DNA from: Rhizophagus irregularis
Taxonomy: Eukaryota
NCBI RefSeq assembly: GCF_026210795.1
Contig: NC_089433.1
Location: 868,001 to 932,000, forward strand
Length of the DNA: 64,000 nt
Direction: 5' to 3'
Shown here: positions 24,057 through 62,880 of the stretch, piece by piece
How the letters are laid out: the number at the start of each line of letters is the position of its first letter
Position numbering within the stretch: position 1 is the first letter of the stretch
Translations under genes and position numbers: made by a program
The notes under the pieces: model-generated
The model's input: only the letters and a program-made list of their open reading frames with translations
The model's database searches: none
What the model was told of the DNA's origin: nothing

Positions 24057-25665
24057 ATGGATGATGATAAACTTTTTTTATCTAAATTATCCCAAAATTT
24101 ACTTGAAATTTTAAATGATGAAGAATATTATGATATAACTATTGAAGTTGGTAATGACCCTCAAGTAAAAATATTTCGTGCGCATATGATTATTTTATAT
24201 TATCGTTCTTCATATTTACAAAGAATTTTATCGACTAATAAAAGAAAAAATGATGAAACTTTGACACATATTAAATTACCAAATATTTCACCTAAAGTTT
24301 TTCAAATAATTTTAAGGTAATAAAATTCTAAATTTAACAGGACTTTAAACAAAAAATTTAATATAATTTAATATAATTTAATATTCCTAATCCTAATTTT
24401 ATAATTTTTTTTTTATTATTATTTTTAGGTATATTTATAGTGGAAGAATTTCTTTGAAAGAAAATAATATTTTAGATATAATTAATTTACTAGTTTCTGC
24501 TAGTGAACTTGGTATTCAGGAATTAATCCTTTACATACAATCTTTTTTGATTGAAAATAAATCAAACTGGATGGAACAAAATTTCGATTTAATCTATCGA
24601 ACAAGCTTTGAAAATGATTCTTTCTTGGATCTTCAAAAATATTGCACTGAATTAATTTCTAAACAACCAGAAAAAATATTTAATTCAACAAATTTCACTT
24701 CAATTTCAGAAAAACTTTTAATTTCAATTATTCAAAATGATAATCTTCAAATGAACGAAATTCAAGTTTGGGAAAATGTTCTTATATGGGGACGTGCTCA
24801 AAATCCAGAACTTCCATCTGATATCACAAACTATTCAAAAGATGATTTTAATGTTTTAAGGAATACCTTGCAACAATGTATTCCATTTATTAAATTTTAC
24901 AATTTAACTACTAAAGAATTTGTGGATAAAGTATTACCTTATAAAAAAATTTTACCAAAGGATTTATATAAAGATTTATTAAAAGTCCTTTTAAATTATT
25001 TAGATCCTAATATCAAACTAAATGATAGAACAAAACCCAACGTAACTAAAGAAATTATTAATACTGAATCTATTGATTCAAAAATTATTACACATCAACA
25101 TGTTGAAGCAATCCCAAAACCCAACGTAACTAAAGAAATTATTAATACTGAAACTATTGATTCAAAAATTGTTACACATCAACATGTTGAAACAATCTCA
25201 AAATGGATCGACAGATTAGAAATTACTGATGAGTTAACTTCATCTTATGAATTCAAATTGTTATTTCGTGGATCTCGTGATGGATTTTGTCCTAAAAAAT
25301 TCCACGAAATTTGTGATAATCAATCTCGCACTGTTACGCTGGTTAAAGTAAAGGGCAACAACGAGATCCTTGGAGGATATAACCCGACTGAATGGATGTC
25401 TGATTATAGTCGGAATTATAATGAGGATTGTTTTATATTCTCTTTTAATAATAATATAATTAAAGATTGTATTATAAGTCGCGTAATGGCTAATAATGGA
25501 GCTACATGGAATTGTTTTTGTTATGGTCCATTATTTGGTTCTAATGATCTTATTATATGGGGATCCAGAGGTGAATGTCGTTGTTTTAAATCTGACTATG
25601 AAAAACCGATTAGAAAAGAGAGAAGATTTTCTATAGAAGAATTTGAAGTATTTAAAGTCGTGTAG
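24057..25665 (+). CDS. BTB/POZ + BACK + TLDc protein, 2 exons
   Basis: Tandem paralog of the upstream gene without the lectin domain. Intron about 24,317-24,428 at the same position (ILR/YIY). Internal 84-bp tandem duplication. Confidence 0.9.
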
Positions 25666-26800: not shown

Positions 26801-29800
26801 TAGTGTTTCGGGCGAAACCGAAACTAAATTTTTGGCGAAACTTCCGAAACTTGGCGAAACTAGTTTCGCCACCAGTGCAAAATTCCGAAACTGGCGGAAT
26901 TTCCGAAACCTAGCGAAACTTGCCCAAACTTCCGTAACTTCCGTAACTTGGCAAAACATGTTTTATTTATTTTTTTGTAATACATGACTGGTTTAACAAA
27001 AAAAATAACAAAATTTATTTATAAATTGCAACTTTACAATTTAGAATATTACAATATTACATAGTATTAATTATTTCATCAGCTTCGGCAGCTGGATCCC
27101 ATTCAATATCATCATTTTCATTCATAGGAACGTCTACTCTATTATCTTGAATCTCATCTTCTACACTATCTATACTATCTTCAATTATATCACCCAAAGT
27201 ATCAACAAATGCATCTAAGTCCAAAATATTATCAATATTTAATTCTTCCTCCTCACCAATTACTATTTCCTCCTCATTATTGTAATAATCAAGTAATTCA
27301 TCTTCCAATTCAAGAAGGTCTTGGTCGGGATTCAAATGTGCATCAATTAATATTTGATGAATTTCTTCAGTGGATTTTTCTATACCATAATAAGGCAATT
27401 CTTTTTTCACATTTGCATGATAATAGGCTGAAAGTTTATACATATTTTCAACTTTATTTAAGCCTAAACGGGTCCTTCTTTTGCCATATATCCAACCAAG
27501 ACTTGACCATACTCGCTCACATCCAGCTGCATGAGGTGTGACGGAAAAAAGTTTAAGTGCTAGTTGAACTAAGTAATCCTCATCTTTAGGAAAGCTATCC
27601 TCAATTGAAAACCACCAAGTATATGGAGTTTCAGTATCACCCATTTCAATATCAAAAGGTTTTTCTCGTATACGATATTGTTTCATTTGATGCATTAATT
27701 CTTTACGTTCAGCTTTGTTTTTTCCCATTTTCATAAAAATTTCATCTGCTATCATTAATAAATCTCTAAACAGACCTCGTGCCCAGCAAATTTCTAAAGT
27801 ATTTATTTGGTATGATAAATTTAATTTAGTAAATAATTTTATAATAATAACTATAATTTTGTCTTTGAAAAAAAAAAATGTGTTTGAATTTTCCATTTAG
27901 TGATTTATTAATTATTATTATAAGAATTACAGATAATATGATCCAAACTTACCAGTATAATACGGGTGTAAAAAAAAGCATAATAAATATATTGGATCAG
28001 CAAATTCAGCGTAACGACGGTTAAAAATTGAAATACACTGCTGACGAAAAACTCGATGATCATTATTAGGTAATTTTTTAATTGCAGCTCCAAGTTTTGC
28101 AAGTCCAAGAAAACAATCAGCAAGGGTGCAAGACTGAGATTCTAATGCTGCAATTGATTGTTTAATAGGACGTAAGGTAAATGCTAACGCACGTACATCA
28201 TCAAAAAATGCACGTGATCGTAAAACTGATAATACTGCTGTTGAAAGGTTTTTGGGTTTTTCACATTTTAACTAAATAAAAAGCAAAAAAATGAAATTAT
28301 TTGTTGAATTAGTAATTTAATGAATTCAGACAAATGGTTCAAAATCTTACATTTTCTAATGGTACTTTATGGCGCATAATTGAATCAACACAGTCATACA
28401 TAGTGTGCCATCTGGTATTTACCCATTTCTTCAATCCACCTCCACTAATACCACAAGCTTTAGCTTCTTCTTTTAATGCAGAACCTTTTTATATTAAATA
28501 AATTAATAAAACAATTGTAATATCAAAAAATAAAATAAAATAAAATTTAAATTAAATTACCTCCTTGATGGCTTTTTTTAAAGTATGTCACAATAGTATT
28601 ACATTTTGTTAAAATCCGATTTGCAAATGAAGTAGAGCAAATATCTTTTGAAATCAGATTAATAGCATGTGCCATGCAACGCACATTAAGAATATTTTTA
28701 TACTTTTCTGTGATAATTTGTCGTGCATTTCGAATATTTGCTCCTGAATCCGATACAATTGCTGAAAAATTTGCTGGACCAATTTCATCAATTATTTCAT
28801 CAATTGTTTTGGCTAAAAATTCGCCAGTATGGCTTTCACTTGATAGATCCTTTAAGCACCACAAATACTCCTTATGGTTGAGTGTGTGAATTAAAAAATC
28901 CCAAATTGACTCATTTGCTGAGTTTGTCCACCCATCACATGCTTGTTAGATTTAAAATAAAGATTAATTAAAATTAAATTAAAATCATTAATCATTAATA
29001 AATCAATAAACAACATACACAATGTTAAATTCACTGTATTTTTCAAATCTTTCATAACTTGTGTGTTCACAACTGCAGTTTAGTCTGCCAGAAAGTAATT
29101 CTTTTGATGGTGGCGTGTATCCTGGACGTAGAGTCTTCAAAAATTCAACAAAAAAAGGATTTTCAATTACATGCCATGAAATGCCACATACAACAAATGC
29201 TTTTACACAAGCACGATCAATTTCATGAATTCTATCCTCAGAGAGTTGACTACTTTCATGAAATTCTGACATTTTTGTTTGAATTGAACCATCATTAAGT
29301 TTTCGCTTTTTAGATGAAAGATTGGTCATATTTCCTTCAGCTTTTGCAGCAAGATGATTTAAGAAAAAGTTCCTTGTATCAGCCGGTACTTTAGAACAAT
29401 CATTAGCGAAGTGTGCTTCCAACTCTTGTGGTGAGCCCTTTTTCCAAAATAAATCACAGTATACACAGGTTGCTTCATAGTGACCTTCTGATTCTTTTCT
29501 ACCTTGTATAGCATTATCTCTCCATACCAAAGACTTAGGACGACCACCAGAATTTTTACTTTTCTTTTTTGTTGGAGTTATAGGAGTTGCATTTGGGGAA
29601 GGGTTAGAAAAGGTAAAAATTTGTGTAGACATAATTGAAGAAAATGATAATTGATAAGTGATTGTTTTCAAAGTTGGGCGATAAGAAAAAAGGGGGTTCA
29701 GGGGTAAATGGTTATTTATAAATAAACGCGTCAGTCACGTCATATAAATCTCCTTACATTTTTGCGAGGTAATACACGTGACATTTTTAGTTTCGCCAGG

Positions 29801-37928: not shown

Positions 37929-39452
37929 ATGAAGAAAATTATTCTCGCTTTTGGCTCAACAGGCCTTGGCAAGACAACAATGGCTCATTTGCTTTGTGAA
38001 GCAAATGTTAAGGGTTCAAGTGGTATTGAATCTGCAACTAAAATAGCAGTATATTATGAAACAGATAAATATTTATATATTGATACTTGTGGATTTGGTG
38101 ATTCATCTGGTAAAACAGATGAAGAATTATTTCATGATATGATGTGTTTATTTCAAAGATATGGACAAAATAATATCTTTAATATCAATACAATATTATG
38201 GTTTTGTTCTGAGAGTGAAAGAGAGACAAGTCACTTACAACGTGAGGCTAATTTTATTCAACGTCTTGTCGAATATACTGATGAATGTAACCCAATAGAT
38301 TTATGGAAAAGTGTCTTGATTATAACAAAGGGCAATTTAAATTTGCGCAAATTAGTTGATGGACCAAAATCTGCTGCAAGGAATGCTTGTTGGGCTTTTT
38401 CTAATAAACAACATTACGAATTTAATGAAGATTCTTTCTTCGTTAAACACTTTCCATGTTGGATCTATGACACTGAAGGTATCACAGAAGAAAATGCACG
38501 TTGGGTTAAAATGGATTCTAAAACTCGTTTCGAATTTAATTGTTATCGTCAGGATGAAATAAAATCAAAAGTTCAACATTTGATTTCAAATTTTAGTCCA
38601 ATAACAATACGCTTTAAACAAGGAATATGTAAAAAATGCAATGTAATTGGGGATCCAAGGCTTTTCATCACACAATGTCATACCAAATCATTTTTTAAAC
38701 ATTCTATAAAAATCGAATATTTTCATCCTGAAGAAATTGTTCATTTTCATTCGGGAAGTAAGTTTCTTGTTCATGAACCTGATGAAAACTCAATAAAAAA
38801 GCTTTTTGAAAGTATATTCGATGGCGATCAAATTGAGATTCCTGTGTCTCAAGTTTCAAGTGAAATAGCAGAAAAAATTATTGAATCGTGCAAATTATTT
38901 AATAATCAAACAAATGCAGCACCAGAGTTACAACCAGAATTACAACCATCATTTATGTCACAAATAATTTCACACGCACCTCAAGCAGCATCAAATTTAT
39001 TACAAACAGTAGCGCCATTAGTGACGACATTGGCCGTTCCCAGAATGGCACCTAGTACTGTAACTTCTACTTATCTTCTTTCAGGTCCTTCAGTAGCCTT
39101 CCTTGTCATTTGCTCCGAAAGAAATAAGTGTTGTTATGAGGCAAAAAATATCTCATGTAAAAGGTGTAAAAAATTGATTGAAGAAATAAATGAAATAGGC
39201 TGTATTGAAAAATGTGATAATTGTAAAAAAGAATGGATAGAAACTGGTTGTGCAACTGGATATGGATGTTGTAAACAAGAAGAGGGAAAGCTCGGATGTC
39301 AAGCACATGAAAGATGCACAATATGTGATGAAGCTGCGATCGAATTAAATTCCCAAGGATGTACGGAATTTTGCGTGAAGTGCAAAGAAATGTGGAATAT
39401 TACACCAGGCTGTGATTCCGCTTCCAAACACGATGTGTTGATAATGGATTGA
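37929..39452 (+). CDS. P-loop GTPase (AIG1/GIMAP- or MMR_HSR1-like) with Cys-rich C-terminal region
   Basis: 507-aa single-exon ORF. G1 GSTGLGKT, G2 SAT, G3 DTCG; many CxxC motifs in the last ~120 aa. Confidence 0.85.
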   Translation: MKKIILAFGSTGLGKTTMAHLLCEANVKGSSGIESATKIAVYYETDKYLYIDTCGFGDSSGKTDEELFHDMMCLFQRYGQNNIFNINTILWFCSESERETSHLQREANFIQRLVEYTDECNPIDLWKSVLIITKGNLNLRKLVDGPKSAARNACWAFSNKQHYEFNEDSFFVKHFPCWIYDTEGITEENARWVKMDSKTRFEFNCYRQDEIKSKVQHLISNFSPITIRFKQGICKKCNVIGDPRLFITQCHTKSFFKHSIKIEYFHPEEIVHFHSGSKFLVHEPDENSIKKLFESIFDGDQIEIPVSQVSSEIAEKIIESCKLFNNQTNAAPELQPELQPSFMSQIISHAPQAASNLLQTVAPLVTTLAVPRMAPSTVTSTYLLSGPSVAFLVICSERNKCCYEAKNISCKRCKKLIEEINEIGCIEKCDNCKKEWIETGCATGYGCCKQEEGKLGCQAHERCTICDEAAIELNSQGCTEFCVKCKEMWNITPGCDSASKHDVLIMD

Positions 39453-46424: not shown

Positions 46425-46611
46425 TATGCCGACGTACAGCGCTATACAACACATCTGATCGGATAATTTTGATATATTGTTTAATACATTGTCTAATTAT
46501 ACACTAATAAACCTTCTGCTACCTAACCACATAAATTGCTCAATAAATTTAAGCGTAAAGAACTGACACAACACTAGTATACTGGTATAGAATATAAAGA
46601 TTTGATATAAT

Positions 46612-49356
46612 CCCTATAAGAAATATGTATATGGAAAGGATACATTTTGTATACATTTTATGTACGTTTCTATAGATTCCATATACAAATATCATAATTT
46701 GTTAGATGGGAAAATTAAAGAAAAATACGGAGATCTTAGTAGGGTTTATTCAATTAATATAAACTATAGTCATCTCGACGAAGTTAATTATATTATTACT
46801 TGGAATAATATTATGATAGAAAAAAGACTTCGACATTTTATTCGGCAATATACAGATATAAGGAATTTTGAACAATTTTTAAATTTAAATCGAAACGCGA
46901 AATATAGGAAGAGTCAAGTAGATTGGCAAGTTACATTTACATATTTAAAAGAAAAAGAAACCGCTTTAGAAACTAGTTTATGGACATCTAAAAGACGTCG
47001 TAAAAAAATGTGACGGTTAATAGAGGAGATCCCTACGATTGAACATTGTAAAAAATCTTTATTTGATTTATTTAAAGATTGGAAATGTCCCCGATGTGAA
47101 AAAAAGAAAGAGACCTTTAATCATGTTTGGAGATGTAAATCTCAAAAAAAGAAAATGATGTCGATTATAAAAAATGCTTATGAATTTTTTTTCAATGAAA
47201 TTTTAAAATTGAATTATGTAATTATAAAAGAAGAATTGTTTCAATTATTTCGAGAGGAAACTTATGGTCTATTGAGAGAGGATGTGAATAATTTGACGTT
47301 TATAGATATTATTAAAGGAATATTTCCATTAGATATTACGAGATTTTTAATCAATAATAAAGTGAAGGCGGATGATAGAATAGCGTTAAGCGTTTTATTT
47401 TTAGATTACGTATACGATGAAACCTTTAAGATTTGGGAGGATAGATGTGAGGTACAAATTAAAAAAGAAAAAGCTTTTCAAATTAGCGAAGCAAAAAAGA
47501 AATCAATGAAGAGTTACGATTCCAAATATAAAAATAGGCTTGATGAGTTGACCACTCCGCTATATGGAAGGGCTGAGGGTTTACTTGCTGGGATTTATTT
47601 TAATAAAAAGCCGTTGGATTTTACAATTTTTGTGAGCCAGATTACGTTTAATTTTTGTTTTTATTTTAAATTTCTATTTGTTTGCCCGATAGGGTGAGTT
47701 TTTTTTTATTATACAGTTCTATATTTTCATTTAATCTGGTTTGTTGGGGGTGATTTAATTTATTATTTCATTCTAGATATTTAGTTTAGTATTATTGTTT
47801 AGATAGTTTTTTTTTATTTACTATAACTGTTATCAAACTAAAGACATAATTGTAATTTCTTTGATCAATTAATAAAGTTCGTTTGTTAACCAGAAAAAAA
47901 AAAAAAAAATAGATTCCGTATACAAATTCCATATATTTAATAAGCAAATTCATTTTTGAACATTTTTTAAAAAAACTAATGTATACGGAAAAAATTAATC
48001 ATGCGGAATGTATACGGCATTTTTAAACTTACAAAATCCATCATAACATAATACGTTTTTTGTTTTTTATATAACCCTTACTTTGATGAGTTTGATCTTC
48101 CGATCTTTCTTTCTGTCTTTCCTTTCCTTTCTCTTTTCTCTTGTCTTATTTTTGTTATTTTTTCTAAAATTTTCTTCTTTCTTCGTCACCTCCCTTTTAA
48201 AAAAAAAATTTTTTTTTTTTCGTACCTCACTTTAAAAAAGCTTTTTTTTCGTCACTCTCCTTTAAAAGAAAATTTTTTTTCGTCACTCCCTTAAAAAAAA
48301 TTTTTTTGATTTTATTCTTTTATTCCCACTCTTCTTTTTTTTTTAAAAAAAATTTTCTTCTTTCTATTTCTATTTCCTCTTTATAAAAATTTTTTATTTT
48401 TCTAACTTTGACGTCCTCCCTTTAAAAAAAAATTTTTTTAACTTTCCTAACTTCGTTACCCTTCTTTTTAAAAAAATATTTTTTTTTGATTTATTCTTTA
48501 TTCCCCTTAGTTTCTTTTTTATTTATATTTATCCCTTTTTTATTTCATAGGCCAGCAGATTTTTTTTTTGTGAGAAGATTCAGTTTTCTTTTTTCTTTTT
48601 TGTAGATCAGTTTGGGAGTCCTTTCCTTTTTGTAGGATGGTTCAGGATTTTTTCTTTTTTCAGGTCAGTTCAAATTTCTTTTTTTTTTGTAAGTTGGGTT
48701 CAGATTCTTTTCTTTTTGTAGGTTGTTTCAGTTTTGTTGCTTCAGAGTCTTCTTTTTTTGTAGGTCAGTTTTGGATTTATTTTGTTGTTTTGGTTTCTTT
48801 TTCATCAGATGCTTCATAATTCTTTTCTTTTATGTAGTTCAGACATTCTGGAGTTTGCTTTCTTTTTTGTAGGAATGCTAACCTTTGGTGACTTGGACGA
48901 TTGCAGATACTATATGGGGTTTTGTTTCCAATTAAGTTAGACGTTCTTATGTTTCTTTCTTTTTGTTTTTTTGGGTTGTTTGAACCTGAACTTATAGATA
49001 ATTTTGGTTGCAATAGGTGGTTTTAATAAGGAGGGATTTTTCATAATGTATTTGTATTTTGTTTATTTTTTATTTTTTATATAATTTAATAAAGTAAAAT
49101 TAGATTTATGAAAATACAATTATAGTAAACTGTAATACAAATATAATTTCAGTGACCAAATCGTATAAATTTCGTGATAAAATCAGTGATCAAATCATGT
49201 AAATTCCATATGAATCCCGTGCAAATTCCGCATCCAAACCATATTTTTAGTGATACGGAATTGTGCATTTTTCCGTATCCTATTATGATACGTTATTTCT
49301 AAGGAAAAAAATCGTATGAAAACTTTATAAAAAACGTATCCAATTTTTTTATAGGG
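46612..49356. mobile_element. Second copy of the CCCTATAA TIR element, carrying a LINE insertion
   Basis: Colinear with 5,188-6,753 once 46,691-47,909 is removed. Flanks AAT/TAT are an imperfect TSD. Confidence 0.85.
46691..47909 (+). mobile_element. 5'-truncated non-LTR retrotransposon (LINE)
   Basis: Poly(A) tail at 47,894-47,909 and 18-bp TSD TAGATTCCRTATACAAAT. ORF remnant contains the CCHC finger CPRCEKKKETFNHVWRC. Confidence 0.9.
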
Positions 49357-50775
49357 TATGGGCGTCATTAGTGCATCCGGTAAGAATTTCGGATTGATTG
49401 AAATTGGTGGAATATCTAATCCTTGTTTTGCGAGTTCATCTGCCAATTCATTGAAATGAATTCCGGAATGTGCTTTCACTTTTTGGAAATTAACTGTAAG
49501 GTTATTTTGTAAAACTATATAATTAATTAAACTCCACGTACGTCAATTTTAAGGAGTCTTCGTTCAGAAGTTAAGCGATTGGATGATCGAAAATAAGTTG
49601 AAATAATATTTTGAGAATCTATGTAGATATTCACAATACTGTCTTTTGAACATATTAAAAGGGCAGTTAATAGGATGATGGGTGGAAGACCGTTCCTCCA
49701 TTATAGATAATTGGTGGTAGCCCTATAAAAAAGGAATGTTCAGAAAACATACATAAAATAAACATAAAATGTACATTATACATAAAATGTCTATAGAATG
49801 TCCATAGAATACATAGGATATATGCAAAGGGGACTCATATACTTTTTTGTACATTTTATATACAGTGAGCCCATTTTGTATATTTTTTATATATTTTATG
49901 GACATTCTATAGACATTTTATGTATATTGTATATTTTACGTATATATTCTAAACATTCCTTTTTTATAGGGTAGGAATTTATCCGATACTTCCGCCCAGC
50001 CAAAACCCATTGTCGTTGTACGGTTAGGTGTTTCTGCATATTTGGCGAGTGATTCATCTGTGTAAAATTAAGTGTTCCGATTTTGTAATTGCATGGCCAA
50101 TTGCGTTAATAAAGATATATTATCTTGATTCTCAAGAAGGCTGTTTTTAATTTGTGTTATCGTGGTTAAGAGTGATGTTGACGAGTTGTTTAACGGGTGA
50201 AATGTGGAGTTATGTTGAGTAGATTCTGATGGAGAATGATTATACGGTGTGTTGGACGCGTGTCTGAAAGCGTTAAATAAAAGCCAGTGTCCGTAGCGTG
50301 ATCAAACTTGAAATCGGAAAAAGTAGAACGTTTCGGTAAATCACTGGGATTTTACGGACTGAAAAAAAAAAATTAAAATCGATTCAACTTAATGAAATAG
50401 ATGTTTACTGAGGTTCTATAATTCTTTGAGTGTATCGAAATTTTGATTAATTGTGTGGTACAGCCATTAATACACATTTTGGTCGCAAATCTCTATAGTA
50501 TCGGACGTGTAATGAACATCCCGGACAAGTGCTTAGTATATCGATGTAAGTTTTCTCGGTGTTAAAGTAGCTAATTCATCTCGGCTTGTTGTTGGAATAA
50601 AGTGTTCTCTATATGTAATCGATAACGCAAATGGGTCGTTTGAGTTTCCATATAATTCTTTATTGTTGACTGAATCCCAAGAAATAATCCATTCGTTAGG
50701 TGTTTTATAATGAACATATTTCTGAAATATTTGTTCTTTATTTTGTTTCAGTTGTAGTCGCATTTTCAACATCAT
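49357..50775 (-). mobile_element. Degraded retroelement RNase H region
   Basis: Minus-strand YTDES...MGFGW, DSQNII and KVKAHSGIHFNELADELAK RNase HI motifs, with stops and indels. Confidence 0.75.
49721..49971. mobile_element. MITE with CCCTATAA termini inserted in the RNase H relic
   Basis: TIR CCCTATAAAAAAGGAATGTT / AACATTCCTTTTTTATAGGG, 3-bp TSD TAG. Confidence 0.88.
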
Positions 50776-51576
50776 TTTTATGAAAATGAAAAAAAATAAT
50801 ACTTAAAAAATTTTAATATAAAAAAAAGCCATATTTATGATATAGTCACAATGTATCAGACAACGCAATCACAGTATTGTAGATGTATTGCAATTTCGTA
50901 TTAACTTACAGTACAATGCATTGTTACGTTACTAAAATAACAGCGTGATACTATAGTGAAAGCGATGTCATAAAATCACAGGTTTCAGCAATGTTTATTT
51001 TTTTCGCAGCTCAATAAAAGGACTCTTTATGTACTGATATATTACATGAATGAAACCTTTCACTATAAGCAATACAACATATTAGTTTTAACTAGAATTA
51101 TACTTTCGAGTTTAGATGATCACTTACAATAATATATAATTATCATTAACCTTGTGTTTATCTTAATAATAATATAGGATTCCCTATAATAAATTTATTC
51201 CGTGTTTTTTATTCTGTTATTTCCGTAAATGTATTATATTCACGGAATTTATAGCCTCAAAATGTATAGATTTTTAGTTATTTTTCCGTAATATAGAAAT
51301 TACGGATAAATCTTTTACAGAAATGATATCTTCTAACAAAAAATGTTAATTTTTCGTTACTTATCTAATAAATATTGTGTATTTGCATCAAAAAGATTTT
51401 TTTTCTTATTACAGCATAGAAAATTTACAGTGTACACTATTAGAAAATTAGTTATGGTTTAGACAACTTTTAAGGCAACCTCAAACTTGCCAAAATTATT
51501 AGAATTTAGAACATTTTAAATAATGAATTTAAAGATGTGATTTTATTTTTAGAATACACAAACGATAAAATACAGA

Positions 51577-51749
51577 TAGGTATGGCACGTAATTTAAAAC
51601 AACATGTTCTAAAACAGTTTTCGTTTTATTATATATAAATTGATTTTTTAACCAAAATTTAAGATTTAAAATTTATAATATCGAAGTGTTTTAAAACATT
51701 TTTTAACACATGTTTTAAAACGCCGAAATCGTTTTAAAACATGTCCCTA
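51577..51749. mobile_element. Degenerate hAT-type MITE
   Basis: TAGG...CCTA ends with 8-bp direct flank AATACAGA; internal TAAAAC/GTTTTA repeats. Confidence 0.55.
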
Positions 51750-51974
51750 AATACAGAATATAAGACAAAATATGTAATAGTGATTCGAATATTAAGTAAT
51801 TTGATAATATAATAACACAAGTAAACTAACGAAATATATATATATAAAGTACAATGTATTATTACAAATAAATAGATAAACTATAGACAAATGATTATTT
51901 AACAATATACATAAATGTTTAATTTCCAATCAGATCTGACGATAAAATTCGTAAATGTAAAAAATTTTATTTTA

Positions 51975-52076
51975 TTACATAATTGTACAGCCACCAGATT
52001 CACCCGGTTTTTCAGTGGCTTCAGCAGTTGCGATAGATGGAATGGATAGTTTAATGGTAACTTCAGTCTGATTCAT
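51975..52076 (-). CDS. 33-aa CAAX peptide, candidate prenylated lipopeptide pheromone precursor
   Basis: MNQTEVTIKLSIPSIATAEATEKPGESGGCTIM*. Ends in CTIM-stop, has a CAAAATG start context, and is GC-richer than its flanks. Confidence 0.65.
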   Translation of the reverse strand: MNQTEVTIKLSIPSIATAEATEKPGESGGCTIM

Positions 52077-53419
52077 TTTGTTAGGAAATTTAAAGAATTT
52101 AATTGATTTTAAGAGTTTGAATTATGCGAAAAAAACTATCAAAGTATTTTTTCTTTTTCTTTTTTTTTTTTGATTGAATTTTAATTTTTTGTCTTCTTAA
52201 GAAAATTTTTTGCTAATTTATACTTTTTCATACTTTTGGATTGAAAAATATTTAATATTGTGTGCATTTACGCATGTCTCCGTGTTTGAAAAAACAATTA
52301 GTAATTGATCTACAATACGTAAAATTTTTAGTTACACTTTTTAGGAGCTGAAACATCACAACATACAAAAGAATTTTCATACAGACAATATTTTCACCAT
52401 ATTTGTGTGTTAACAATATTTTTTTAAAATTCAGTATGAGTATTGTCCTAAAATACTATATCGTTATATATATATATATTTTTTTTTTATATATTGTTGT
52501 ATTATCTTTATCTATTATTTGAAATCATTGCAATCATGTGGTGTCACGTTAAGACTCCTTTGAATTGTGTAATTGTGTAGCTTTTCTCCCATAAGTTATG
52601 TTACACAAACAAAAAATGAATAGTATTCCTAAGGAAAATTTTTGGTTACATTAATTTCCAAAAAGGAAATATCGTTTCACGTCGCTTTGGGACGTTCCGC
52701 CTTTTTTTATTTTGTAGGTACCTATCTGGACAATAAATCGTAAATGGATCAGATCCAACGGTAAATGTTGATCTGTAGAATTTATATAAAATAGTCACCT
52801 TTTCTTAGGTGACAATGTCAATAAATGATCGGCAAATTCGTGATTATATAGAGATGTCGAATTGAAAAAGATGTGTTACCAAAGCCCGTGATTAGTCACG
52901 TTGCCACCTTAGATATTGACAAAATAATACTTTATTAATAATATAAATAAATACAATAATATGCTTGGTTTAATATTCGTGCGGGCTTAGGTATTACATT
53001 AGTTTAAAATATATATATTAAAATGTCGGTGATTTGAATGGCCTTTATGTTAACTCAGGCCAATTTATAGTGTTGGCCTGAATTATATATATCAATGTAA
53101 CATAAACATCTTACTACAGTATGGTTAATTATGAAATGGGACACGGAAAATTTATCATTTTGTCGGTGCAAAAATGATATCAGTATCGTTTTTTTAAATA
53201 AATATGAAAGATATAATGTTTTTTGAAGTTTATCTCCATTTTAAGGAGTTTGTCATTTCAGAGGTCTTCAAAAGCAAAAAATTCACTTCAATAATATTAA
53301 GATGTTAATCTAAAAAAAAAAGTTTTAAATGTCAATAAAAAAAGTAAAGGGCGTTAATGATGGTAAGTACAGTCAGACCTCTATGTACCGATATTTTATG
53401 TACAATTGCCGCTCTTTTT

Positions 53420-53780
53420 TTTCTTTAGAAATGCCGACACAACCAAATTTTAAGGTAAATAGGCGTGAGATTGATTTTTTAACATTTATTTGAAGAAATG
53501 GGTATAATATCACTTTTACTCCATCTTTTTCTTTAGAAATGCTTTTAAGGTAAAATAGAAATAGGCGAGACATGAAATTACAGTATGTAGAAGTAATATT
53601 AATATCATTTTTACTTTTTTTTTTCTTTAGAAATGCTGAATTTTAAGGTAAATAGAAATGGGTGAGACGCGAAATTATGTTTTTTAACATTTATTGTGCT
53701 AACAGCATTTCTACATTTTTTTCTTTCTTTAGAAATACTAGACTAATTAAATTCTGAGGTGAATATAGATAGTAGTGGGA
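53420..53780 (+). repeat. Four tandem mini-exon/intron-like units
   Basis: TTCTTTAG-AAATRC...AG-GTRAA repeated four times at ~95-110-bp spacing. Confidence 0.55.
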
Positions 53781-54045
53781 CGCGAGATTTGCTTTACTAT
53801 TTTTTGCATTCCAACATACTTGTCAATAATAGTAGTGAGATACATGTGAAATGGGTGTGCATAAGTAGTTATTAGAATATTGAGTTTATTATATAATGTG
53901 CAAATATTACAATAACGTTATAGTATATATTGACATACATTTTACAAATAAAGCATCAATATTATTGTAATTATGTGATAATACATGTTATAATAGTGTT
54001 ATAAAGCAAATTCTGACATGGTGTTTTAATATATATTGAATCATA

Positions 54046-56725
54046 CATCAGGAAATTTTTCCAGATGATATATAGCGATATATATCACTTTATCGATATT
54101 TATCGCTGTAAAATACTGATAATTAACGAAATATGATAATTAATAATAATTATCTGCTGATAAATTGCGTTATCAGCAGATATTGATAATTATAGAAAAC
54201 AACTATCAAGTAAATTACCGATAATTTGTGATATTGATGATTATCGATAGTTATTGTCAAGTTATTTCATGATATTGATAATTATCAAATATCATCATAA
54301 TTATCAAAAATTAGCACACAGTTAGTTGACGACGCTGGGGTTTGGATCACGTGACAGATTTAATCAGATTGGCCACATGATCGCGTCATGTTTATTTGTT
54401 CGTTCCCCATTACTTCTTTTCGTCTCCCATCACCCCATCACTCCTCTTCATCTTCCCATCATTTCTTTTCGTCTCCCATCACTCCTTTTCGTCTCCTGTT
54501 ATTCCTCTTCGTCTACCATCACTCCTTTTTACTTTCCATCACTCCTCTTCTTCTCCCATCACCTTCCATCACTCCTCTTCGTCTCCCATCACTTTTCTTC
54601 ATCTTCCCATCATTTCTTTTTGTCTCCCATCGCTACTTTTCGTCTTCCATCACTCCTCTTCGTCTCCTATCACTCCTTTTCATCTCTCTATTTCTCCTTT
54701 TTGTTTCCTATCACTTCTCATTACTCTTTTTTACTCCCTTTCATCTTTTATTACTTTCCATTACTCCATTGTTATTTCATTTTTTTATTAGCATCTTTCT
54801 CCTTGATCATTGTAATTTACTTATCTTTTTTATTTATTGATATTATTTTTTTTTATTTGTACCACTTCATTAAAAATAAATACGGGATTTTTTTCTTTAA
54901 AATCGTAAAAGTGTAACTTAAATTTTAATATTTGCAAATAAAATTTCATTAAATAAGATTATTTTGAATAAATAAATATGTTCGCAAAAAAATTTTTTTA
55001 AAAAATATCTTTGCAATAAAATTTTAAGTTTCACCGATCAAAAAATTAATTTACTCAATAACTGAATCCCCTCTATTCTTATAAAATTATGTATTACGCG
55101 TATTATGTATCACGTAATACTAATCTACTTTTTAAACTATTTTTAAACTTTTTTTAACAAAATATTCCTCCCTCTCTTCCATTTTTCCCTTTCCCCTTTT
55201 TTCGTTCTTCCCTTTTTCCTCCTCTCCTCCGTTTTTACCTTTTCCCATTTCTTTCGTTCTTCTTCTCTCTCGTTCCCCTCTCTCTCTTTCTTTCATTTCC
55301 TCCTCTCTTTCATCCTTCCCTTCACCTAAATTAACAGCTTTTCACCAAGTAAAAAATTTACGAATTTTTTTAGGAACATTTTCATTTCGGTGGATCTCTT
55401 GTGAATTTTTGGGTTTTAATTTTTTTTTGGCCTTACTAACCTTTCTTTTTTTTAGGGTTTATCACATTTCGACCTTTGGACGCGTGGAAAATTCTAGACA
55501 GCCAGGTCTTTTAACGCTTTGAAATTCGGTGGTTAGTCCTTAATTTTTTTTTATTTTTACAGTAACGAAACGTTTATTAACGTTTCATATTTTTTCTTTT
55601 TTTTAGATATTGGCTTTTCTTCCTTTTGGGCTTTGGAGTTTGGATAGGTAAGTTTCGAAGTGAAAACTTTCGAAACTTTAGTAATATTTTTTTGAAAAAA
55701 AAACTAATTTTTTTTAGATATCGGCTTTAATCTTCCTTTTGGGCTTTGGATAGATAAGTTTCGAAAGTTTCTTTCTTTCTTTCGAACTTAGATTTTTTTT
55801 TAATAAAATAATCTAATTATTTTTTCCTTTTTTTTAGGTATCGGTTTTGGTTTTGCGCTTCAGATCAGTAAGTTTTGAAAGTTTCGTTTCAAAACTTATT
55901 ACTTTTTTTTTAAAAAAAATAAAAAATTTTTAATTAATTTCTTTTTTTTTAGGCATATATTAGCTTCAATCTTTCTTTCAGATCGGTAAGTTTCAAAAGT
56001 TTCTTTTCATTTTGAAACTTTTTTTTGGCTTTTTTTTAAAGTAAAATTTTCTAATTTTTTTTTTTTTAGGTATGTATCAGCTTCGACTTTAAATTTTGGA
56101 TTGATAAGTTTTGAGGGTTTCATTTCGAAACTTGTTTTTTTTAAAATAAAATTTTTAATTTTTTTTTCCTTTTTTTTTTTAGGTTAACCACTTTGAATCA
56201 GTAAGTTTCGAAGGCTTTGTTTTGAAACTTATTTTTATTTTAAATAAAAATTTTAATTTTTTAGGTCTTTCTCTTTTTTCTAGACGGCTGGGCCTTTAGA
56301 CATGAGAAATTTGGTGTATAAGTTTTGGATTCTGCCATTTTGGTTTCGCAACATCCTGTTGTGAACCAGACTTTTTATTTTATTTTATTTAATTAGAAAT
56401 ATATTTAATGTTGTATTTATTATATTTTTATTTCGTTTTATTTGTATATTATAATAAATTAAATAAAATTAAATTTTGATGTGTAAAGTTTGATATTTAT
56501 TGTTTAAGTTAAATATCGATTGTTGTTAAATATCGATTGTTTATTATTTGTTAAATATCGATATTTATCATTTAGGTTTAAATTTGATGATTTTATCATT
56601 TTTATCCATATCGATACTCGACGAGTGCGATTATTATCGATATATATCACATTTTATAAATAATGGGATATATATCGATAAAGTGATATATATCGCTATA
56701 TATCACCTGTAAAAATTTCCTGATG
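54046..56725. mobile_element. 2.7-kb non-autonomous TIR element with an internal pyrimidine-rich repeat and a spliced-exon array
   Basis: ~54-bp TIR CATCAGGAAATTTTT.CAG.TGATATATAGCGATATATATCACTTTATCGATAT with 2 mismatches; 3-bp ATA on both flanks. Confidence 0.85.
54400..54780. repeat. ~21-bp pyrimidine-rich minisatellite (CCATCACTCCTCTTCGTCT)
   Basis: Direct reading; it explains the three overlapping low-complexity ORFs. Confidence 0.85.
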
Positions 56726-56889: not shown

Positions 56890-59090
56890 ATAGAGAAATT
56901 TATTCTTAGAACAATTATCGAGCCATATACGAATAGAATAATGCATGAAATGGTCTCATTTTCTGGCAATGAATAATTCGTGTGAAGGAGCCGAACCATA
57001 TGGTATAAAATTTTATCTGAAATGACGATAAATATAGAACAATTAATGGAAGTTATATAATAGCAAGGAAATTTAATGGAAAAGATATAGTTTTGAGAAA
57101 AGACTTGCCAACTAGTACGAGAAAAGAAAGCAACAAAGAAATAATAATGTGGAAAAAAGGAAAAGACTACATATATAGCGTTAAGAGTAAAAAATCAAGA
57201 AGTAAGAATTACGATGAAGTTGGTAAGCATTTGATATTACATGAAGATTTAGAAACAGAAAATACGAAATACAATTCACCGTTCTTAATGGATTGTAAGG
57301 GTGTAAATACGATATTAGTAGAAAACGTAATATAGGGAAGTGTTTAGTATATATAGAAAAAGAAATAGCGACGATGATAAAAGGAAGAAAAATTAAAAAA
57401 TAATGAAATCGAGAACGTCATGAAACCGTATATGACGACAGAAAATATAGAAATACAAAATGAAACAGCTATTGAAGCTAATATAGGAGAGGTGAGCGAG
57501 CTTGAGGCTAAAAAAAATGATGATAGATAATAATAAAATAGATAACGTAGAGAATAGTATGATGTGGTTAGAATTTATATTGGAGGATAACGAATTAAAG
57601 GAAACGTTAAGAAATTTTGTTGATGAATGGCTTTATACAGTAGATAAAGAAATAATAGTTAATATAGGAGCAGTGATACAAAAGGGAGATGAGCTATGCT
57701 TAGATGGTTTTTTGGGGATGGAATTAATACCGAAAAGTAGCGATATTTATAAATTTAATTTCGATGGAATATTGAGGTTCGTAAAGGACGAGCGAAACGT
57801 ATATATAATAGCGTTAATTATTGCAATAATTATATTGCCTTGCGATATAAAAACAAAAATAAGGACAGACTTGGAAATAATTGATTGTTTATATAAATAT
57901 AGTAAAATAGGAAGTGTTCGAAGAGAGTTAGACGATAAATTATATATATGCTTAAATTTTATCAATACGGTATTAGTGTTAAAAAACATACATATGTTAG
58001 TAAAGACGATAAGATGGTAACGCAAAAAGCAATACAAGATGTCAAGGTGCCAGCAATAAAAAAAGAATTAATTAGTTGTGAACAAACGATTAAGGAAATA
58101 GAATTCAAGATGAATAATTTGTTGGTAGACGAATATAGTTTGAGGTGGAATTATATTCCAATAGAACATGCATATAAATTTTGGTTTAAAGAGTTGATCT
58201 ACAATAGTACGAAATAGACTTGCTGTCTCTTAGATTCTGTCATTCAAATGGAGGTAATATTACGATAGACTGGAGCGCTTCTTTTAGATTAATCAATAAT
58301 GAAAATAACAACATCGAAGAAGTTACAAATAAAGAAGATGCTATTACAAGGTGTTTTTAGAGTTAAGAATTACCTAAAGATTTTACCAACATATGAGGTG
58401 TTGTGGAACCGTAAAGTTTGGGGAATTAGCAGTAACAAATGCCCGCGGTGCTCAATTGAAACAAAAACGTGGGAACATATTTGGATATGTGGTAAAAATG
58501 ATGTTAATAACACAGAATATGAAATATTCAAATAACAGCGTTGAAGAAGTGTTAAATAAGTCAATTGTCTAAATAACGAAGCAATCGATCGATTTAAAGA
58601 TAGTCTGTTTGAAAACAGGGGTATTAAGATTTATGATAATGCAAACTGAAAATTTGATTAGGGAGATAACAAGAGGTTTATTCAACATAAAGTGGTGGCA
58701 AGCGTGCAAGTTAAAAGATCAAAGGAAAATATTAAATGAAATTTTTGATGTATACATGCAAAAAATACAGCGTTTGATTTGGAACAACAGATGTAGTGAT
58801 ACGATTGATTTGGAACAACAATTGGGGATTATAAAAGAACTTAAAAGGAAAAATAAAAAGAGATGATACTAGTGATGAGGTGATACGAAAATATAATGAT
58901 AGAAAATAGTAAGGATGACGTAGGTTATAATAATAAAAAATCATGGGGAAAATACGTGACATAGAATGCAATACAATAGCTCTATATAGATGGTTTTTAT
59001 ACTTCGTTTTATTATACGAAGATTTTGATATGGAGAAATTTGGAGTTAACGTTTACGTTATCGCCAATTTCAATGTATTTTTTGTATTTA
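56890..59090 (+). mobile_element. Degraded LINE 3' region, same family as 60,686-62,880
   Basis: ORF fragments homologous to the downstream copy (LCLDGF.G.EL, IGS.RRELDD, KCPRCSIETKTWEHIWIC), with many frameshifts. Confidence 0.8.
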
Positions 59091-59091
59091 A

Positions 59092-60644
59092 CTAGATGTA
59101 GCCCGTCGCGCTGCGCCAGGGATGAGAGTAATAATAAACACATTTTACTATTATTATGATGGTATTAGTAGGAATAAATATAATAAATTACACAATTTAT
59201 ATGATTATTTAAATAACAATGAATTGTGTGCAAGTGTTATTATTAAATGCAAATTTTATTTAATATGAAACAAATGTTGCAGTACTATGAAATTATGATC
59301 TATTTGTACATTTACAAAAATAATTTTGTATAAGTAGTTTATTGTTACATTGTTACAAAAAATCTTTTTTTTTTATCTTAAAAAATTTCATTGTAGCATT
59401 AAAAAAATTACATCTTCTGCTGAAAAAAAAAATACATAAAATATTGTTAATATCTCAAGAAATTCATTATAGCAATCTATTGTTATAGAAAAAAAATTAT
59501 CTCACTAATTAATATGAAAAAAAATTCTGAAAAACTTCTATTGTCATGAAAATAAAGAATTCCTCAGAAATATTAATTATAACGATCGATTGTTACAAAA
59601 AATAAGTACGGTAATTATGGTAGTCTATTATTGAGCTTGATACAGCCTAAAAAATATTGTTATTATTAATAATAAGAATCGGGAATTGTAAAAAAGTTTT
59701 TGTTATAAAATTATTAATTATAAAAAAAGGTAATAACCATGACGCCGCAGCATTGATCCAAACCTAAATGGTGAAAGAATGTATTTAGGAAAAAAAAATT
59801 CAGTTTGAAAAGTCAAACCGAAAAAGGAAAAGGGAACAAAATTTCAGATTGGAGAAAAAGCCAACCGGAAAAAAAACAGAAAAAAAAATAATAATAAAAA
59901 TTTTGAAAAATAAAAATGAAAAAAAAAATTGTGGGAAAAGAAAAAGGATAAAGAAAAAAATCGGTTTAAAAAAGGGAAATTTTCAAAAAAAAAAGGAATC
60001 CGAAAAAAAATAAGTACCGAAAAAAAGAAATAATATAAAAAAAAAATCGGTCTTAAAAGACTGAAACAATAAGATTATTTAATAAAAAAAAAAGAATAAT
60101 AGTTTTTCGGTTTGGGGAAAAAAGTCCAAATCTAAACGGGGAAAAGAATAGAAAAAATTTCAGTTTGAAAAATAAAATGAAAAATTTTTAAAAAAAGAAA
60201 AGAAAAAAGAAAAGAAAGAGATGTTTCGAGAGATAAAATTGGAAATATGAAAAAAAAGAAAGAACCGAAAGTAAAAGATCAGTTCAAGAAAAAAAACAAA
60301 AGGGGAGCCGAAAAAATTTAGATTGAGGAAAAAAAAAATTCTGTTTTAAAAATTTCATTAACCGGAATTGGATTAGATGTAAAACATGACTTGCCGATCA
60401 AGCAGGCCTTCTAAACGAATTTATCGTAGAGTAAAAAACAGACAATAGCCTTTTCCTATTCGGTAATCTGTCGTACTCTCTGAAATATAGTGGTACAATT
60501 TTTTTTTATATTTTTTAAAATAAAGTGCCCCATAGACTCCCAGTTAAACGATCATCAAAACACTTGCAAAGTATACTCTTTTTTGGTTGTGATCTACGCG
60601 AAAAGTTTACCTGCGAATTTAATATCTTAGATTTAGATTATAGA
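59092..60644 (-). mobile_element. Probable non-autonomous Helitron
   Basis: Minus strand starts A|TCTATAATCTAAATCTAAGATATTAAA and ends with an imperfect GC hairpin CCCTGGCGCAGCGCGACGGG followed by CTACATCTAG|T. No TSD. Confidence 0.6.
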
Positions 60645-60685
60645 TTTAGGAATAAGAATAATGAATCCTAAATCTAAGAGTATGA

Positions 60686-62880
60686 AACTGATAGAAAAGA
60701 AAGTAACAAAGAAATAATTACTTGGAGAATGGATAACGAATCAGATAGTGTATATAGTATAAGATCAAAAAAATCACGCCATCACTATTATGATGAAATA
60801 GGTAAACATATGGTAAAGTATGATAAATTACAAAATCATAATGATTCGAATAATTCTCCATTTTTGATAAATTGTAAGGGATGTGAATACAACATCAGTA
60901 GGAAAAAAGAAAAAAATTTGGGATGTTTTATTTATATAGAAAAAGATATGGCATCAACGCTTAAAGGAAGATGGGAAAAAGATAGTGATGGTGTAAAATA
61001 CGTAAAGCCATATTACACTCTAGATAATATCGATAGACAAAATGATGAGGCGTATAAAAAGCGAATAATTTAGTTACAATTGGAGATATAGAAAAGATGG
61101 TAATAGATAAAGAAAGTAGCATTTTACGTATGGGTGCAAAGTTATGGTTAAATAGTATTATAGAGGACGAAGGAATTTATGATTTATTAAATAATTTTAT
61201 CGAGAACGATTTTATAAATTTTATAGATAAAGAAATTATATTGCAAGTTGGTGGTATTATTCAAAAAGGCTCAGATTTATGTTTAGATGGTTTTTTTGGA
61301 ATAGAGCTCTTTCCAAAAAATAGTAACATAGAAAAATTTAGCATTGAAGGGAAAATTGTTAAAATAAAAAATGAAAGGAAACTATATGCGTTAGGAATAA
61401 TAATAGCGCTTACAATAATTCCAGAAAATACAAAGGTAGATTTAAAAACAGATGAAAAGATTTTAAAATGGTCGATAGATTATAGTAGGATAGGAAGTAC
61501 ACGACGTGAATTAGATGATCCATGTTATATATTTCTAAATTGCATAAATACAATGTTAGATTTAAAAGGTATAAAATTTTTAATTAACGATAAGAATGGG
61601 GAAATTACAGAAATGATGAAAGAAGTGAAATTGCCAGCTTTAAAAAAAGAGTTAATTAGAAATAAACATTCGATTGAAGAGGTAGTCATTAAATACCATA
61701 ATATAATCATTGACAAATACACGTTAAGGTGGAACTACAATCCGATTGAAGGGGCTTTTAGGAACTCTTTTAAAGAAATAAGCAATAATATCAACCATAT
61801 AGATATTATTCTATTAGATTAAGTAAAAGATTGTTTTATCGAATGTAATGGAGCAAATGTGACAATTGATTGGAAAGAATCGTTTAGACTTATTAATAAT
61901 GAAATATCAACAGGAAGAAATGTCACAAATCGAATAGACGCGTCAATCAGGTCATTTAGAGTTAAAAATTTTTTAAAGATCTTACCTACATATAAAATTT
62001 TATACAGGAGGAAAACTTGGGGAATTAAAAATGACAAGTGTCCACGTTGTATTTTGGAAATAGAATATTGGGATCATATATGGTCTTGCGAGAAAAATGG
62101 TCCCAATAATAAGGAAAACGTCTTGTTTAGAGAAAGTGTAGAGGAATTTTCACGTGTGAAATGTTAGACGAAGACGGAGATGAAATCAATAGATTTAAAT
62201 TGGATTTATTTAATATCACTTCAAGTAAATCAAATATAATGGTTTTAGACAATGTATTTAGAGAAGTCACTCGAGGTATTATTAATGAAAAATGGTTGAA
62301 GATTTGCACTAAAGCATTGTTCAAAGCAATATTACGAGATATTTTTGATCTTTATATGGTAAAATTACAGAAATGTATATGGGAAGAACGATGTAATGAA
62401 ACGATAGAAATAGAAAAACAAATGGGTCTTTTTAAAGAACTTAAAAGAAAAAAGCGGATAGACACAAATGATAGTGCAGATGATGATGACGACATTTCGA
62501 ATAATAAAAATTATAATAATAAAAATGATAAGAAAAAAATTAAAAAAATTAAAAATATAATAAAAATAGATTTAGAAAATAGTGTAAAAGAAGACGTATT
62601 TTGTTTAGGTAGCTCTAACAGACATAGGATAGGTAATAATATTATTAGTAATTTAGTCAATACATAGTAGTTTTTAGATATAATAGATACTTTTAATTTC
62701 TTTGGTTATGTTTATCCTCGCCTTGGTTGGATACCCCTTGGCTTTGGTATGAAGAGATTCAATTTTGTACGAGATTGAATTTCAATGTATTAATGTTATA
62801 ATTATTATGTATTATGATGCGTTATTTTTACTAATAAAATAATTAAATGCGTTTACCAAAAAAAAAAAAAAAAAAAAAAA
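60686..62880 (+). mobile_element. 5'-truncated non-LTR retrotransposon (LINE)
   Basis: Poly(A) tail ending at 62,880 and TSD TCTAAGAGTATGA (60,673-60,685 and 62,881-62,893). CCHC finger KCPRCILEIEYWDHIWSC; in-frame stops. Confidence 0.9.

What the first reader, a model, noticed from the sequence alone, without database searches (positions are those of the whole stretch)
51975..52076. Unannotated 33-aa CAAX peptide resembling a fungal mating lipopeptide pheromone precursor
Seen: isolated minus-strand ORF MNQTEVTIKLSIPSIATAEATEKPGESGGCTIM*, below the ORF-track cutoff. It is GC-richer than its flanks, has an AAAATG start context, and a TATATAAA lies about 140 bp upstream. Established: yeast a-factor and basidiomycete pheromone precursors are short peptides (about 25-70 aa) ending in CAAX, with Met at X favouring farnesylation; many basidiomycete ones are cleaved at a charged dipeptide such as ER/DR about 10 residues before the Cys. 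Here EK precedes PGESGGC. Inference: a candidate prenylated signal peptide in a lineage with no observed sexual cycle and, to my knowledge, no characterised peptide pheromone.
Basis: partly seen in the sequence, partly recalled or inferred. Interest (0 to 1): 0.8.

Follow-up and report, generated by a model that had tools for sequence, protein, structure and literature searches.

The report
Variable CAAX peptide family in Rhizophagus
A 33-codon gene of the mycorrhizal fungus Rhizophagus irregularis belongs to a small family with a nearly constant front part, a highly variable core and a lipid-attachment motif at the end, and is likely the precursor of an exported lipopeptide signal, making it an untested candidate for the peptide pheromone that has been missing in these supposedly asexual fungi.

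Summary
The ORF is there as described (51975-52076, minus strand, ends CTIM-stop). The motif alone is at chance level: 0.52 such ORFs are expected per window. Independent data make it a real gene. Neighbouring genes place the window in Rhizophagus irregularis. Six RNA-library runs from five studies hold contigs over it with no splice joint. Ten database proteins share its first 22 residues: six end in C-T-[IL]-M, two show C-T-[IL] before a predicted intron, one end is hidden and one lacks the motif. Across five variants the front part is 89% identical, the core before the cysteine only 28%. Published work reports one Ste3-type receptor and a Ste6 exporter in Rhizophagus but found no ligand gene. 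Best reading (0.5): precursors of a-factor-type lipopeptide signals with variable specificity. Main rival (0.27): an intracellular farnesyl-anchored microprotein whose variable core is only a linker. Against the pheromone reading: the conservation pattern is the reverse of yeast a-factors, known cleavage motifs are not met, no receptor is linked, and no homologue was found under another species name. Farnesylation, export and receptor activity are untested. I found no description in ten literature searches.

The parts
51975..52076 (-). 33-codon single-exon ORF ending C-T-I-M-stop
   Evidence: exact protein is in the collection with 3 close variants; RNA-library contigs without joints
52011..52076 (-). 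Codons 1-22: conserved Ser/Thr-rich front part (putative pro-region), ending T-E
   Evidence: mean identity 0.89 over 19 aligned residues in 10 pairs of 5 variants; 6 of 22 residues Ser/Thr; alignment
51987..52010 (-). Codons 23-30: K-P, variable core and Cys (putative mature peptide; 8 residues here, 12-13 in three relatives)
   Evidence: core identity 0.28
51975..51989 (-). CAAX box (CTIM) and stop; C-T-[IL]-M in relatives
   Evidence: 6 of 10 database proteins end so; I32L variant in an X17 contig
52077..52141 (-). A/T-rich 5' leader with no ATG, an in-frame stop at 52122-52124 and no AG between that stop and the start codon
   Evidence: RNA-library contigs reach 52126-52141, where a poly-A repeat cuts the alignments
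52216..52222 (-). TATAAAT box 146 bp upstream of the ATG (function inferred)
52251..52288 (-). About 38-nt upstream block also found in a contig carrying a divergent copy with otherwise different flanks; possible shared cis-element (the end coordinate is approximate)
   Evidence: tables 5 and 8 (X7 record 8)
51623..51974 (-). Probable 3' untranslated region, with AATAAA/ATTAAA at 51971, 51923 and 51630
   Evidence: contigs of X15 and X16 extend to 51623 and 51686

Best explanation
This is one member of a small multi-copy R. irregularis gene family encoding 33-38-residue peptides with a conserved front part, a variable core and a C-T-[IL]-M end, which likely act as precursors of a-factor-type lipopeptide signals. 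Predicted route: the peptide is made in the cytosol (no signal peptide); farnesyltransferase would modify the Cys; the last three residues would be removed and the new end methylated; the front part would be cut off near T-E|K-P; the 8-13-residue lipopeptide would leave through a Ste6-type ABC exporter and act on the single Ste3-type receptor reported for Rhizophagus. The variable core would carry specificity between strains or nuclei, in mating-like or vegetative self/non-self recognition before hyphal fusion. Shown: ORF, family, conservation pattern, unspliced contigs in RNA libraries. Inferred: every biochemical step, the cleavage site, the receptor and the biological role.
For: Family with a kept end: 6 of 10 database proteins end C-T-[IL]-M and 2 more show C-T-[IL] just before a predicted intron. 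Core identity 0.28 against 0.89 for the front part; P0008 and P0039 have identical 19-residue front parts and 10% identical cores. Several copies per genome: two models from one named assembly lie on different contigs, likewise two from another; run X7 holds at least four versions. Contigs from 6 of 6 laid RNA-library runs cover part or all of the ORF with no joint; in 4 of 6 one contig spans all of it with no listed substitution in the coding part. No hydrophobic signal stretch (best 9-residue hydropathy 1.39). K-P-to-Cys lengths of 12, 12 and 13 in three variants match the 11-13 residues of mushroom pheromones (PMC7288658 passage). CTIL/CTVM-type ends and Ser/Thr-rich N-termini are reported for putative Leotiomycete a-factors (PMC10569646 passage). 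One STE3 and a STE6 were reported in Rhizophagus with no pheromone gene found (PMC3834313 section 12). In a 72-species table, the receptor cluster that I read as Ste3 (unlabelled, no. 670) has 1 copy in R. irregularis and 0 in every other non-Dikarya column (PMC6733946 supplement).
Against: In yeasts and Leotiomycetes the mature C-terminal part is the conserved one and the N-terminus varies; here it is the reverse. The ascomycete Asn site and the mushroom ER/TR site are not met. No Ste3 match among 144 window ORFs of 62 aa or more, unlike basidiomycete P/R loci. Only one receptor gene is reported for at least five cores. P0040 has the front part but no terminal CAAX, and the ends of P0007 and of the X16 variant are not visible. 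All named relatives are R. irregularis; a profile search of 1.84 billion representatives gave 5 hits. The cores are polar and Gly/Ser/Lys/Asn-rich, as linkers are. RNA contigs differ from the window at 51962, so they may come from a sister copy or another strain's allele; contigs show neither strand nor level and RNA libraries can hold DNA. A 2024 study argues that R. irregularis is asexual (PMC11414155 passages).
Confidence: 0.5

Rival explanations
1. An intracellular membrane-anchored microprotein. The conserved N-terminal motif (alternating hydrophobic residues at positions 5-15) is the working part, the variable core is a tolerant linker like the hypervariable region of small GTPases, and the farnesyl group holds it on a membrane.
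For: Conservation is highest in residues 4-22 and lowest next to the Cys. The cores are polar, low in complexity and tolerate indels. No known pheromone cleavage motif is met. The a-factor literature shows the opposite conservation pattern, and a CAAX end is not exclusive to pheromones.
Against: Cores differ far more than recent copies with near-identical front parts should under mere tolerance (identical front part with 10% core identity), which looks like diversifying selection or cassette exchange; this was not tested at codon level. No Pfam family or usable Atlas look-alike for the front part.
Confidence: 0.27
2. An exported lipopeptide aimed at another partner (plant root, hyphosphere bacteria, competing fungi) or at a receptor other than Ste3; the variability reflects an arms race rather than mate or self recognition.
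For: The RNA-library runs that hold it include root and rhizosphere samples. The gene lies among transposon remnants. There are many cores for one reported Ste3.
Against: AM-fungal RNA from soil or root samples would hold any expressed gene, so the habitat says little. I know of no farnesylated fungal peptide acting on plants (recalled, not searched).
Confidence: 0.1
3. A transcribed dispersed repeat (transposon-borne fragment) whose short ORF has no selected function; the CAAX end is inherited by copying.
For: The motif alone is at chance level. Copies share several hundred bases of 3' flank (P0005 and P0007 map down to 51532). The family is known only from one species. P0040 lacks the motif.
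Against: The C-T-[IL]-M end survives in four distinct cores whose neighbouring residues are almost wholly replaced, and length changes are whole codons (out-of-frame copies would be under-reported in protein databases). The ORF is GC-rich against its flanks and sits behind a leader free of ATG.
Confidence: 0.09
4. The ORF is an exon of a longer spliced protein, as five public gene models have it.
For: P0005, P0006, P0007, P0008 and P0039 are annotated as 54-212-aa proteins that include it. Contigs drop rare splice forms.
Against: The models attach different sequences at different ends (two upstream, three downstream). There is an in-frame stop at 52122-52124 and no AG between it and the ATG. 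Contigs bridge the inferred donor at 51978 unspliced in 5 of 6 RNA runs and show no joint anywhere in the ORF.
Confidence: 0.04

Closest known systems
Basidiomycete lipopeptide pheromone precursors (P/R or B locus; e.g. Pleurotus, Lentinula, Coprinopsis phb genes)
   Same: Short precursor, CAAX end, several copies with different mature peptides, predicted mature length 8-13 residues (11-13 and 9-15 reported), sensed by Ste3-type receptors.
   Different: Precursors are shorter (33-38 against 53-72 aa), the ER/TR site with Pro at -4 and Asp/Asn at -2 is absent, no receptor gene was found in the 64-kb window, and there is no sequence similarity.
Saccharomyces a-factor (MFA1/2) and putative Sordariomycete/Leotiomycete a-factors
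   Same: Length, no signal peptide, CAAX with Met, multi-copy, Ser/Thr-rich N-terminus.
   Different: There the mature part is conserved and the N-terminus varies; here the reverse. No Asn cleavage site 5-20 residues before the Cys in the window's peptide, and no GY motif.
Non-mating pheromone-receptor-like systems (Schizophyllum Brl2-4)
   Same: A precedent for Ste3-type signalling in vegetative growth and self-recognition (PMC8161036 passages), which fits a fungus with anastomosis but no observed sex.
   Different: That work concerns receptors; no ligand link to the present family was tested.
Small prenylated intracellular proteins (G-protein gamma subunits, small-GTPase tails)
   Same: Variable polar stretch followed by a farnesylation-type CAAX box (recalled).
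   Different: 33 aa with no Pfam match; too short for either domain.

Membership tests
a-factor-type lipopeptide pheromone precursors | ORF under 100 aa ending in CAAX-stop | tested here: met
   6 of 10 family proteins end C-T-[IL]-M, 1 of 10 (P0040) clearly does not, 3 are hidden by predicted introns
a-factor-type lipopeptide pheromone precursors | No N-terminal signal peptide | tested here: met
   best 9-residue Kyte-Doolittle mean 1.39, GRAVY -0.04; a simple hydropathy test, no dedicated predictor
a-factor-type lipopeptide pheromone precursors | Transcribed as a stand-alone unit | tested here: inconclusive
   contigs in 6 of 6 laid RNA-library runs, no joints; contigs cannot show strand or level, may include DNA, and differ from this copy at 51962
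a-factor-type lipopeptide pheromone precursors | Several copies per genome | tested here: met
   two models on different contigs in each of two named assemblies; at least four versions in X7, which may be a mixed sample
a-factor-type lipopeptide pheromone precursors | Farnesylation, AAX removal, methylation, N-terminal cleavage and ABC export | not testable with these tools
   needs mass spectrometry and genetics; Ram1/2, Rce1, Ste14 and Ste24 could not be looked up because no genome is held
a-factor-type lipopeptide pheromone precursors | Activates a Ste3-type receptor | not testable with these tools
   receptor presence rests on papers only
Ascomycete a-factors | Asn cleavage site 5-20 residues before the Cys | tested here: not met
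   the only Asn of P0001 is residue 2; rule
Ascomycete a-factors | Mature C-terminal part more conserved than the N-terminus | tested here: not met
   0.28 against 0.89; rule
Agaricomycete B-locus pheromones | ER/TR site 9-15 residues from the end, Pro at -4, Asp/Asn at -2 | tested here: not met
   the junction reads T-E-K-P in most members; rule
Agaricomycete B-locus pheromones | Linked to pheromone receptor genes | tested here: not met
   0 of 144 window ORFs of 62 aa or more matched a Ste3 family; short exons, and anything beyond 12 kb on one side or 52 kb on the other, are not covered
Agaricomycete B-locus pheromones | Alleles or copies that follow mating type | not testable with these tools
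G-protein gamma subunits | GGL domain before the CAAX box | tested here: not met
   0 Pfam families for P0001 at E 0.01

The most novel reading that the evidence does not exclude
This family is the ligand set of the orphan Ste3 receptor of arbuscular mycorrhizal fungi: the first peptide pheromone outside the Dikarya, multi-allelic like a mushroom pheromone locus but built as a constant pro-region with an exchangeable core, and used by R. irregularis strains or nucleus types to tell compatible partners apart before fusion or cryptic mating. Lipopeptide pheromone signalling would then predate the Dikarya-Mucoromycota split, and synthetic peptides would let one probe sex and compatibility in these fungi directly.
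Probability: 0.33. Interest if true: 0.95.

Novelty: new variant of a known kind. Interest (0 to 1): 0.8.

Why it matters
Whether arbuscular mycorrhizal fungi mate, and how their hyphae recognise compatible partners, is a long-standing open question. A Ste3 receptor and a Ste6 exporter were reported in Rhizophagus in 2013, but no ligand gene was found (PMC3834313). This family supplies concrete, cheap-to-synthesise candidates of 8-13 residues with natural specificity variants. They can be tested on the receptor in yeast and on germinating spores. A positive result would extend lipopeptide pheromones beyond the Dikarya and give a handle on strain compatibility in a symbiont used in agriculture. 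A negative result would still leave an undescribed family of prenylated microproteins that five public gene models have absorbed into longer predictions.

Tried and rejected
No whole genome is held, so copy number, synteny and the processing enzymes could not be counted. Two scans of the metagenome contigs found nothing (pattern: 0 matches; alignment: 369 pattern matches, 0 confirmed). Viral contigs (81 matches, 0 confirmed) and prokaryote genomes (55 matches, 0 confirmed) gave nothing. Pfam: 0 families for the peptide. ESM Atlas: no usable hit for P0001; only scores of 0.81 or less and TM 0.40 or less for the family part of P0008. Rfam at E 0.1 over 50500-54200: 0 matches. The four RNA runs left 50500-51550 and 52260-54000 without cover apart from short pieces with unrelated continuations, while X7 covered all 30 bins of 51450-52450. 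The runs were chosen for holding the gene, and contigs do not show absence, so this is only a weak hint of transcript limits. A motif count in the upstream 1.3 kb showed no convincing pheromone-response or HMG-site cluster (CACAAT 3 against 0.42 expected and ACGTG 3 against 0.56, out of 10 motifs tried, uncorrected). Earlier scan notes: nothing by sequence, place or the Glomeromycotina words; one search listed CAAX candidates in other genomes, none used. No fold or complex was predicted, because a 33-residue peptide without its lipid would not be informative. Supplement file 19 of PMC6733946 and passages of PMC8778642, PMC8401276 and PMC11844451 held nothing relevant.

Full report
Observation. 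The minus-strand ORF 51975-52076 translates as described and ends C-T-I-M-stop. It has GC 0.40 against 0.19 and 0.175 in the 200 bases on either side. The box 146 bp upstream is GTATAAAT; TATATAAA lies 417 bp upstream. The motif alone is not surprising: 1 of 366 ATG ORFs of 20-80 aa fits a strict CAAX pattern, and 60 shuffles gave a mean of 0.52, with 40% holding at least one.

Organism and setting. Of 5 neighbouring ORFs looked up, 4 are in the protein collection and 3 fall in clusters whose named members are Rhizophagus irregularis, plus one R. diaphanus. The window holds a multicopper oxidase, a Sel1 repeat, tandem BTB-BACK-TLDc genes, a hAT element, a kinase and an RNase H remnant; none of 144 ORFs of 62 aa or more matched a Ste3 family. 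The exact 33-aa protein is on record only from JGI/IMG, not from NCBI, in a cluster of 4. No whole genome is held.

Is it a stand-alone gene? Of 24 runs listed, 20 hold the stretch; 6 are on record as RNA. I laid all 6, from five studies, and one run of unrecorded kind (X7). All 6 have contigs on the ORF and none shows a joint. In X15, X16, X18 and X20 a single contig spans the whole ORF with no listed substitution in the coding part. Aligned ends stop at 52126-52141 in five of them, where a poly-A repeat cuts alignments, while X7 runs on; this is a weak hint only. The leader has an in-frame stop at 52122-52124, no ATG, and no AG between that stop and the start codon, so an upstream exon cannot be joined in frame before the ATG. 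Caveats: contigs show neither strand nor level; RNA libraries can hold DNA; and the RNA contigs listed at 51962 carry G where the window has A, as do 122 of 128 depth units in X7. The RNA may therefore come from a sister copy or another strain's allele encoding the same peptide.

The family. A near-length search found only the peptide's own cluster. A search of longer proteins found four R. irregularis gene models that contain it, a second near-length search one more, and a profile search of 1.84 billion representatives 5 hits, one new. Of these 10 proteins, 6 end C-T-[IL]-M (P0001-P0004, P0006, P0008). P0005 and P0039 read C-T-I or C-T-L and then run into a tail; for P0005 the junction falls on a GT inside the last codon and stop, and 5 of 6 RNA runs bridge that place unspliced, so I infer that both models splice out a real Met-stop. 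P0007 is spliced earlier and its end is not visible. P0040 (unnamed, 62 aa) has the front part, a Cys eight residues later, and no terminal CAAX; it counts against the reading. Between K-P and the Cys the cores are GESGG, GDSGG, GDGKNQAGG, EQKKDANFE and VDSGIKAGGS. Over 10 pairs the 19-residue front part is 0.89 identical and the core 0.28; P0008 and P0039 have identical front parts and 10% identical cores. A second contig of X16 matches codons 1-22 with 7 differences and continues in frame as GPNPNPTKTS (my hand translation of the 30 letters shown); its end is not visible. X7 holds at least four versions at unequal depths, one with other flanks but a shared 38-nt upstream block; X7 may be a mixed sample. 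Two models from one named assembly lie on contigs of 4.55 Mb and 0.28 Mb, and two from another on contigs of 113 kb and 63 kb, so there are several copies, or nucleus-specific alleles, per isolate. No relative carried another species' name. Genes this short are often left unannotated (PMC10282164 passage), so this does not show that the family is confined to one species.

How it likely works. The peptide has no hydrophobic signal stretch. A CAAX box ending in Met is a farnesyltransferase substrate (established knowledge, recalled). In the a-factor pathway the precursor is farnesylated, loses AAX, is methylated, is cut at the N-terminus and is exported by Ste6 (bioRxiv 2021.09.28.462209 passages; PMC7288658 passages). 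Halary et al. reported one STE3 and a STE6 in Rhizophagus and found no pheromone gene, blaming short length (PMC3834313: passages, section 12 and supplement hits). Kiss et al. state that mating pheromone receptors are the one GPCR family conserved across fungi (PMC6733946 passages; preprint passages). In their receptor table, cluster 670, unlabelled but with the Ste3 pattern (S. cerevisiae 1, Schizophyllum 6, Laccaria 12), has 1 copy in R. irregularis and 0 in the Mucorales, Umbelopsis, Mortierella, Zoopagomycota and chytrid columns (supplement file 16, part 23 of 34); some ascomycetes also show 0, so the cluster is incomplete. I therefore read the family as precursors of exported lipopeptides, cut near T-E|K-P to give 8-13 residues, with specificity in the core (0.5). 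Whether the signal serves mating or vegetative recognition is open: R. irregularis has Dikarya-like homeodomain MAT candidates (PMC10386755 passage), mating-related genes rise when isolates coexist though no pheromone gene was seen among them (PMC7490403 passages), a 2024 study argues for asexuality and points to recognition steps in anastomosis (PMC11414155 passages), and Ste3-like receptors serve self-recognition in Schizophyllum (PMC8161036 passages).

Against, and rivals. In yeasts and Leotiomycetes the mature part is conserved and the N-terminus varies; here it is the reverse. Neither the Asn site of ascomycetes nor the ER/TR site of mushrooms (PMC4136793 passage) is met. No receptor is linked, and one reported receptor faces at least five cores. 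These points favour the main rival, an intracellular farnesyl-anchored microprotein with a conserved N-terminal motif and a tolerant linker (0.27). Lesser rivals are a lipopeptide aimed at another partner (0.10), a transcribed repeat without function (0.09) and an exon of a longer protein (0.04).

Known or new. It is built like an a-factor-type precursor but fails the sub-family tests that could be run, and the defining biochemical tests could not be run, so I do not file it as a member. Ten literature searches, one of them for a family motif and four model names (0 papers), showed no description of a peptide pheromone or of this family in Glomeromycotina. I saw most hits only as listings; subscription papers are largely missing from the library, and supplements were searched for two papers only, so an unseen table could list these genes. 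Verdict: a real, apparently undescribed family of small CAAX peptides and a testable candidate for the missing Rhizophagus pheromone; new variant of a known kind; interest 0.8.

Noticed in passing
window 53412-53789: Degenerate tandem repeat of about 100 bp, 4 copies, 1.3-1.7 kb upstream of the peptide gene.
   Followed up: no
window 52251-52288: Upstream block shared with a contig of a divergent copy whose other flanks differ (X7 record 8); it contains CACAAT and may be a cis-element of the family.
   Followed up: partly
window 51978 and 52003 (minus strand): GT donor-like sites inside the ORF that public gene models appear to use to splice out the stop, which hides the CAAX peptide inside longer hypothetical proteins.
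   Followed up: yes
PMC6733946 supplement, receptor cluster 670: R. irregularis is the only non-Dikarya species with a copy in the cluster that I read as Ste3.
   Followed up: partly
window 37929-39452 (+): Single-ORF 507-aa protein with a P-loop-like N-terminus (relatives named G domain-containing) and a long cysteine-rich C-terminus.
   Followed up: no
window 22159-25665 (+): Two tandem BTB-BACK-TLDc genes.
   Followed up: no
window 27057-29734 (-): hAT-type transposase pieces (DUF659, hAT dimerisation).
   Followed up: no
window 3471-7079 (-) and 2341-2757 (-): Multi-exon multicopper oxidase and, next to it, a ubiquitin-like domain.
   Followed up: no
window 46606-49542 and 57021-62667: Retroelement-like remnants on both sides of the peptide gene; an RNase H match at 49198-49542, the rest by appearance only.
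   Followed up: no
window 50536-50775 (-): 80-aa ORF 1.2 kb downstream on the same strand, on record in NCBI, without Pfam match.
   Followed up: partly
window 54326-54916: Low-complexity C/T-rich repeat stretch that opens long frames in three phases.
   Followed up: no
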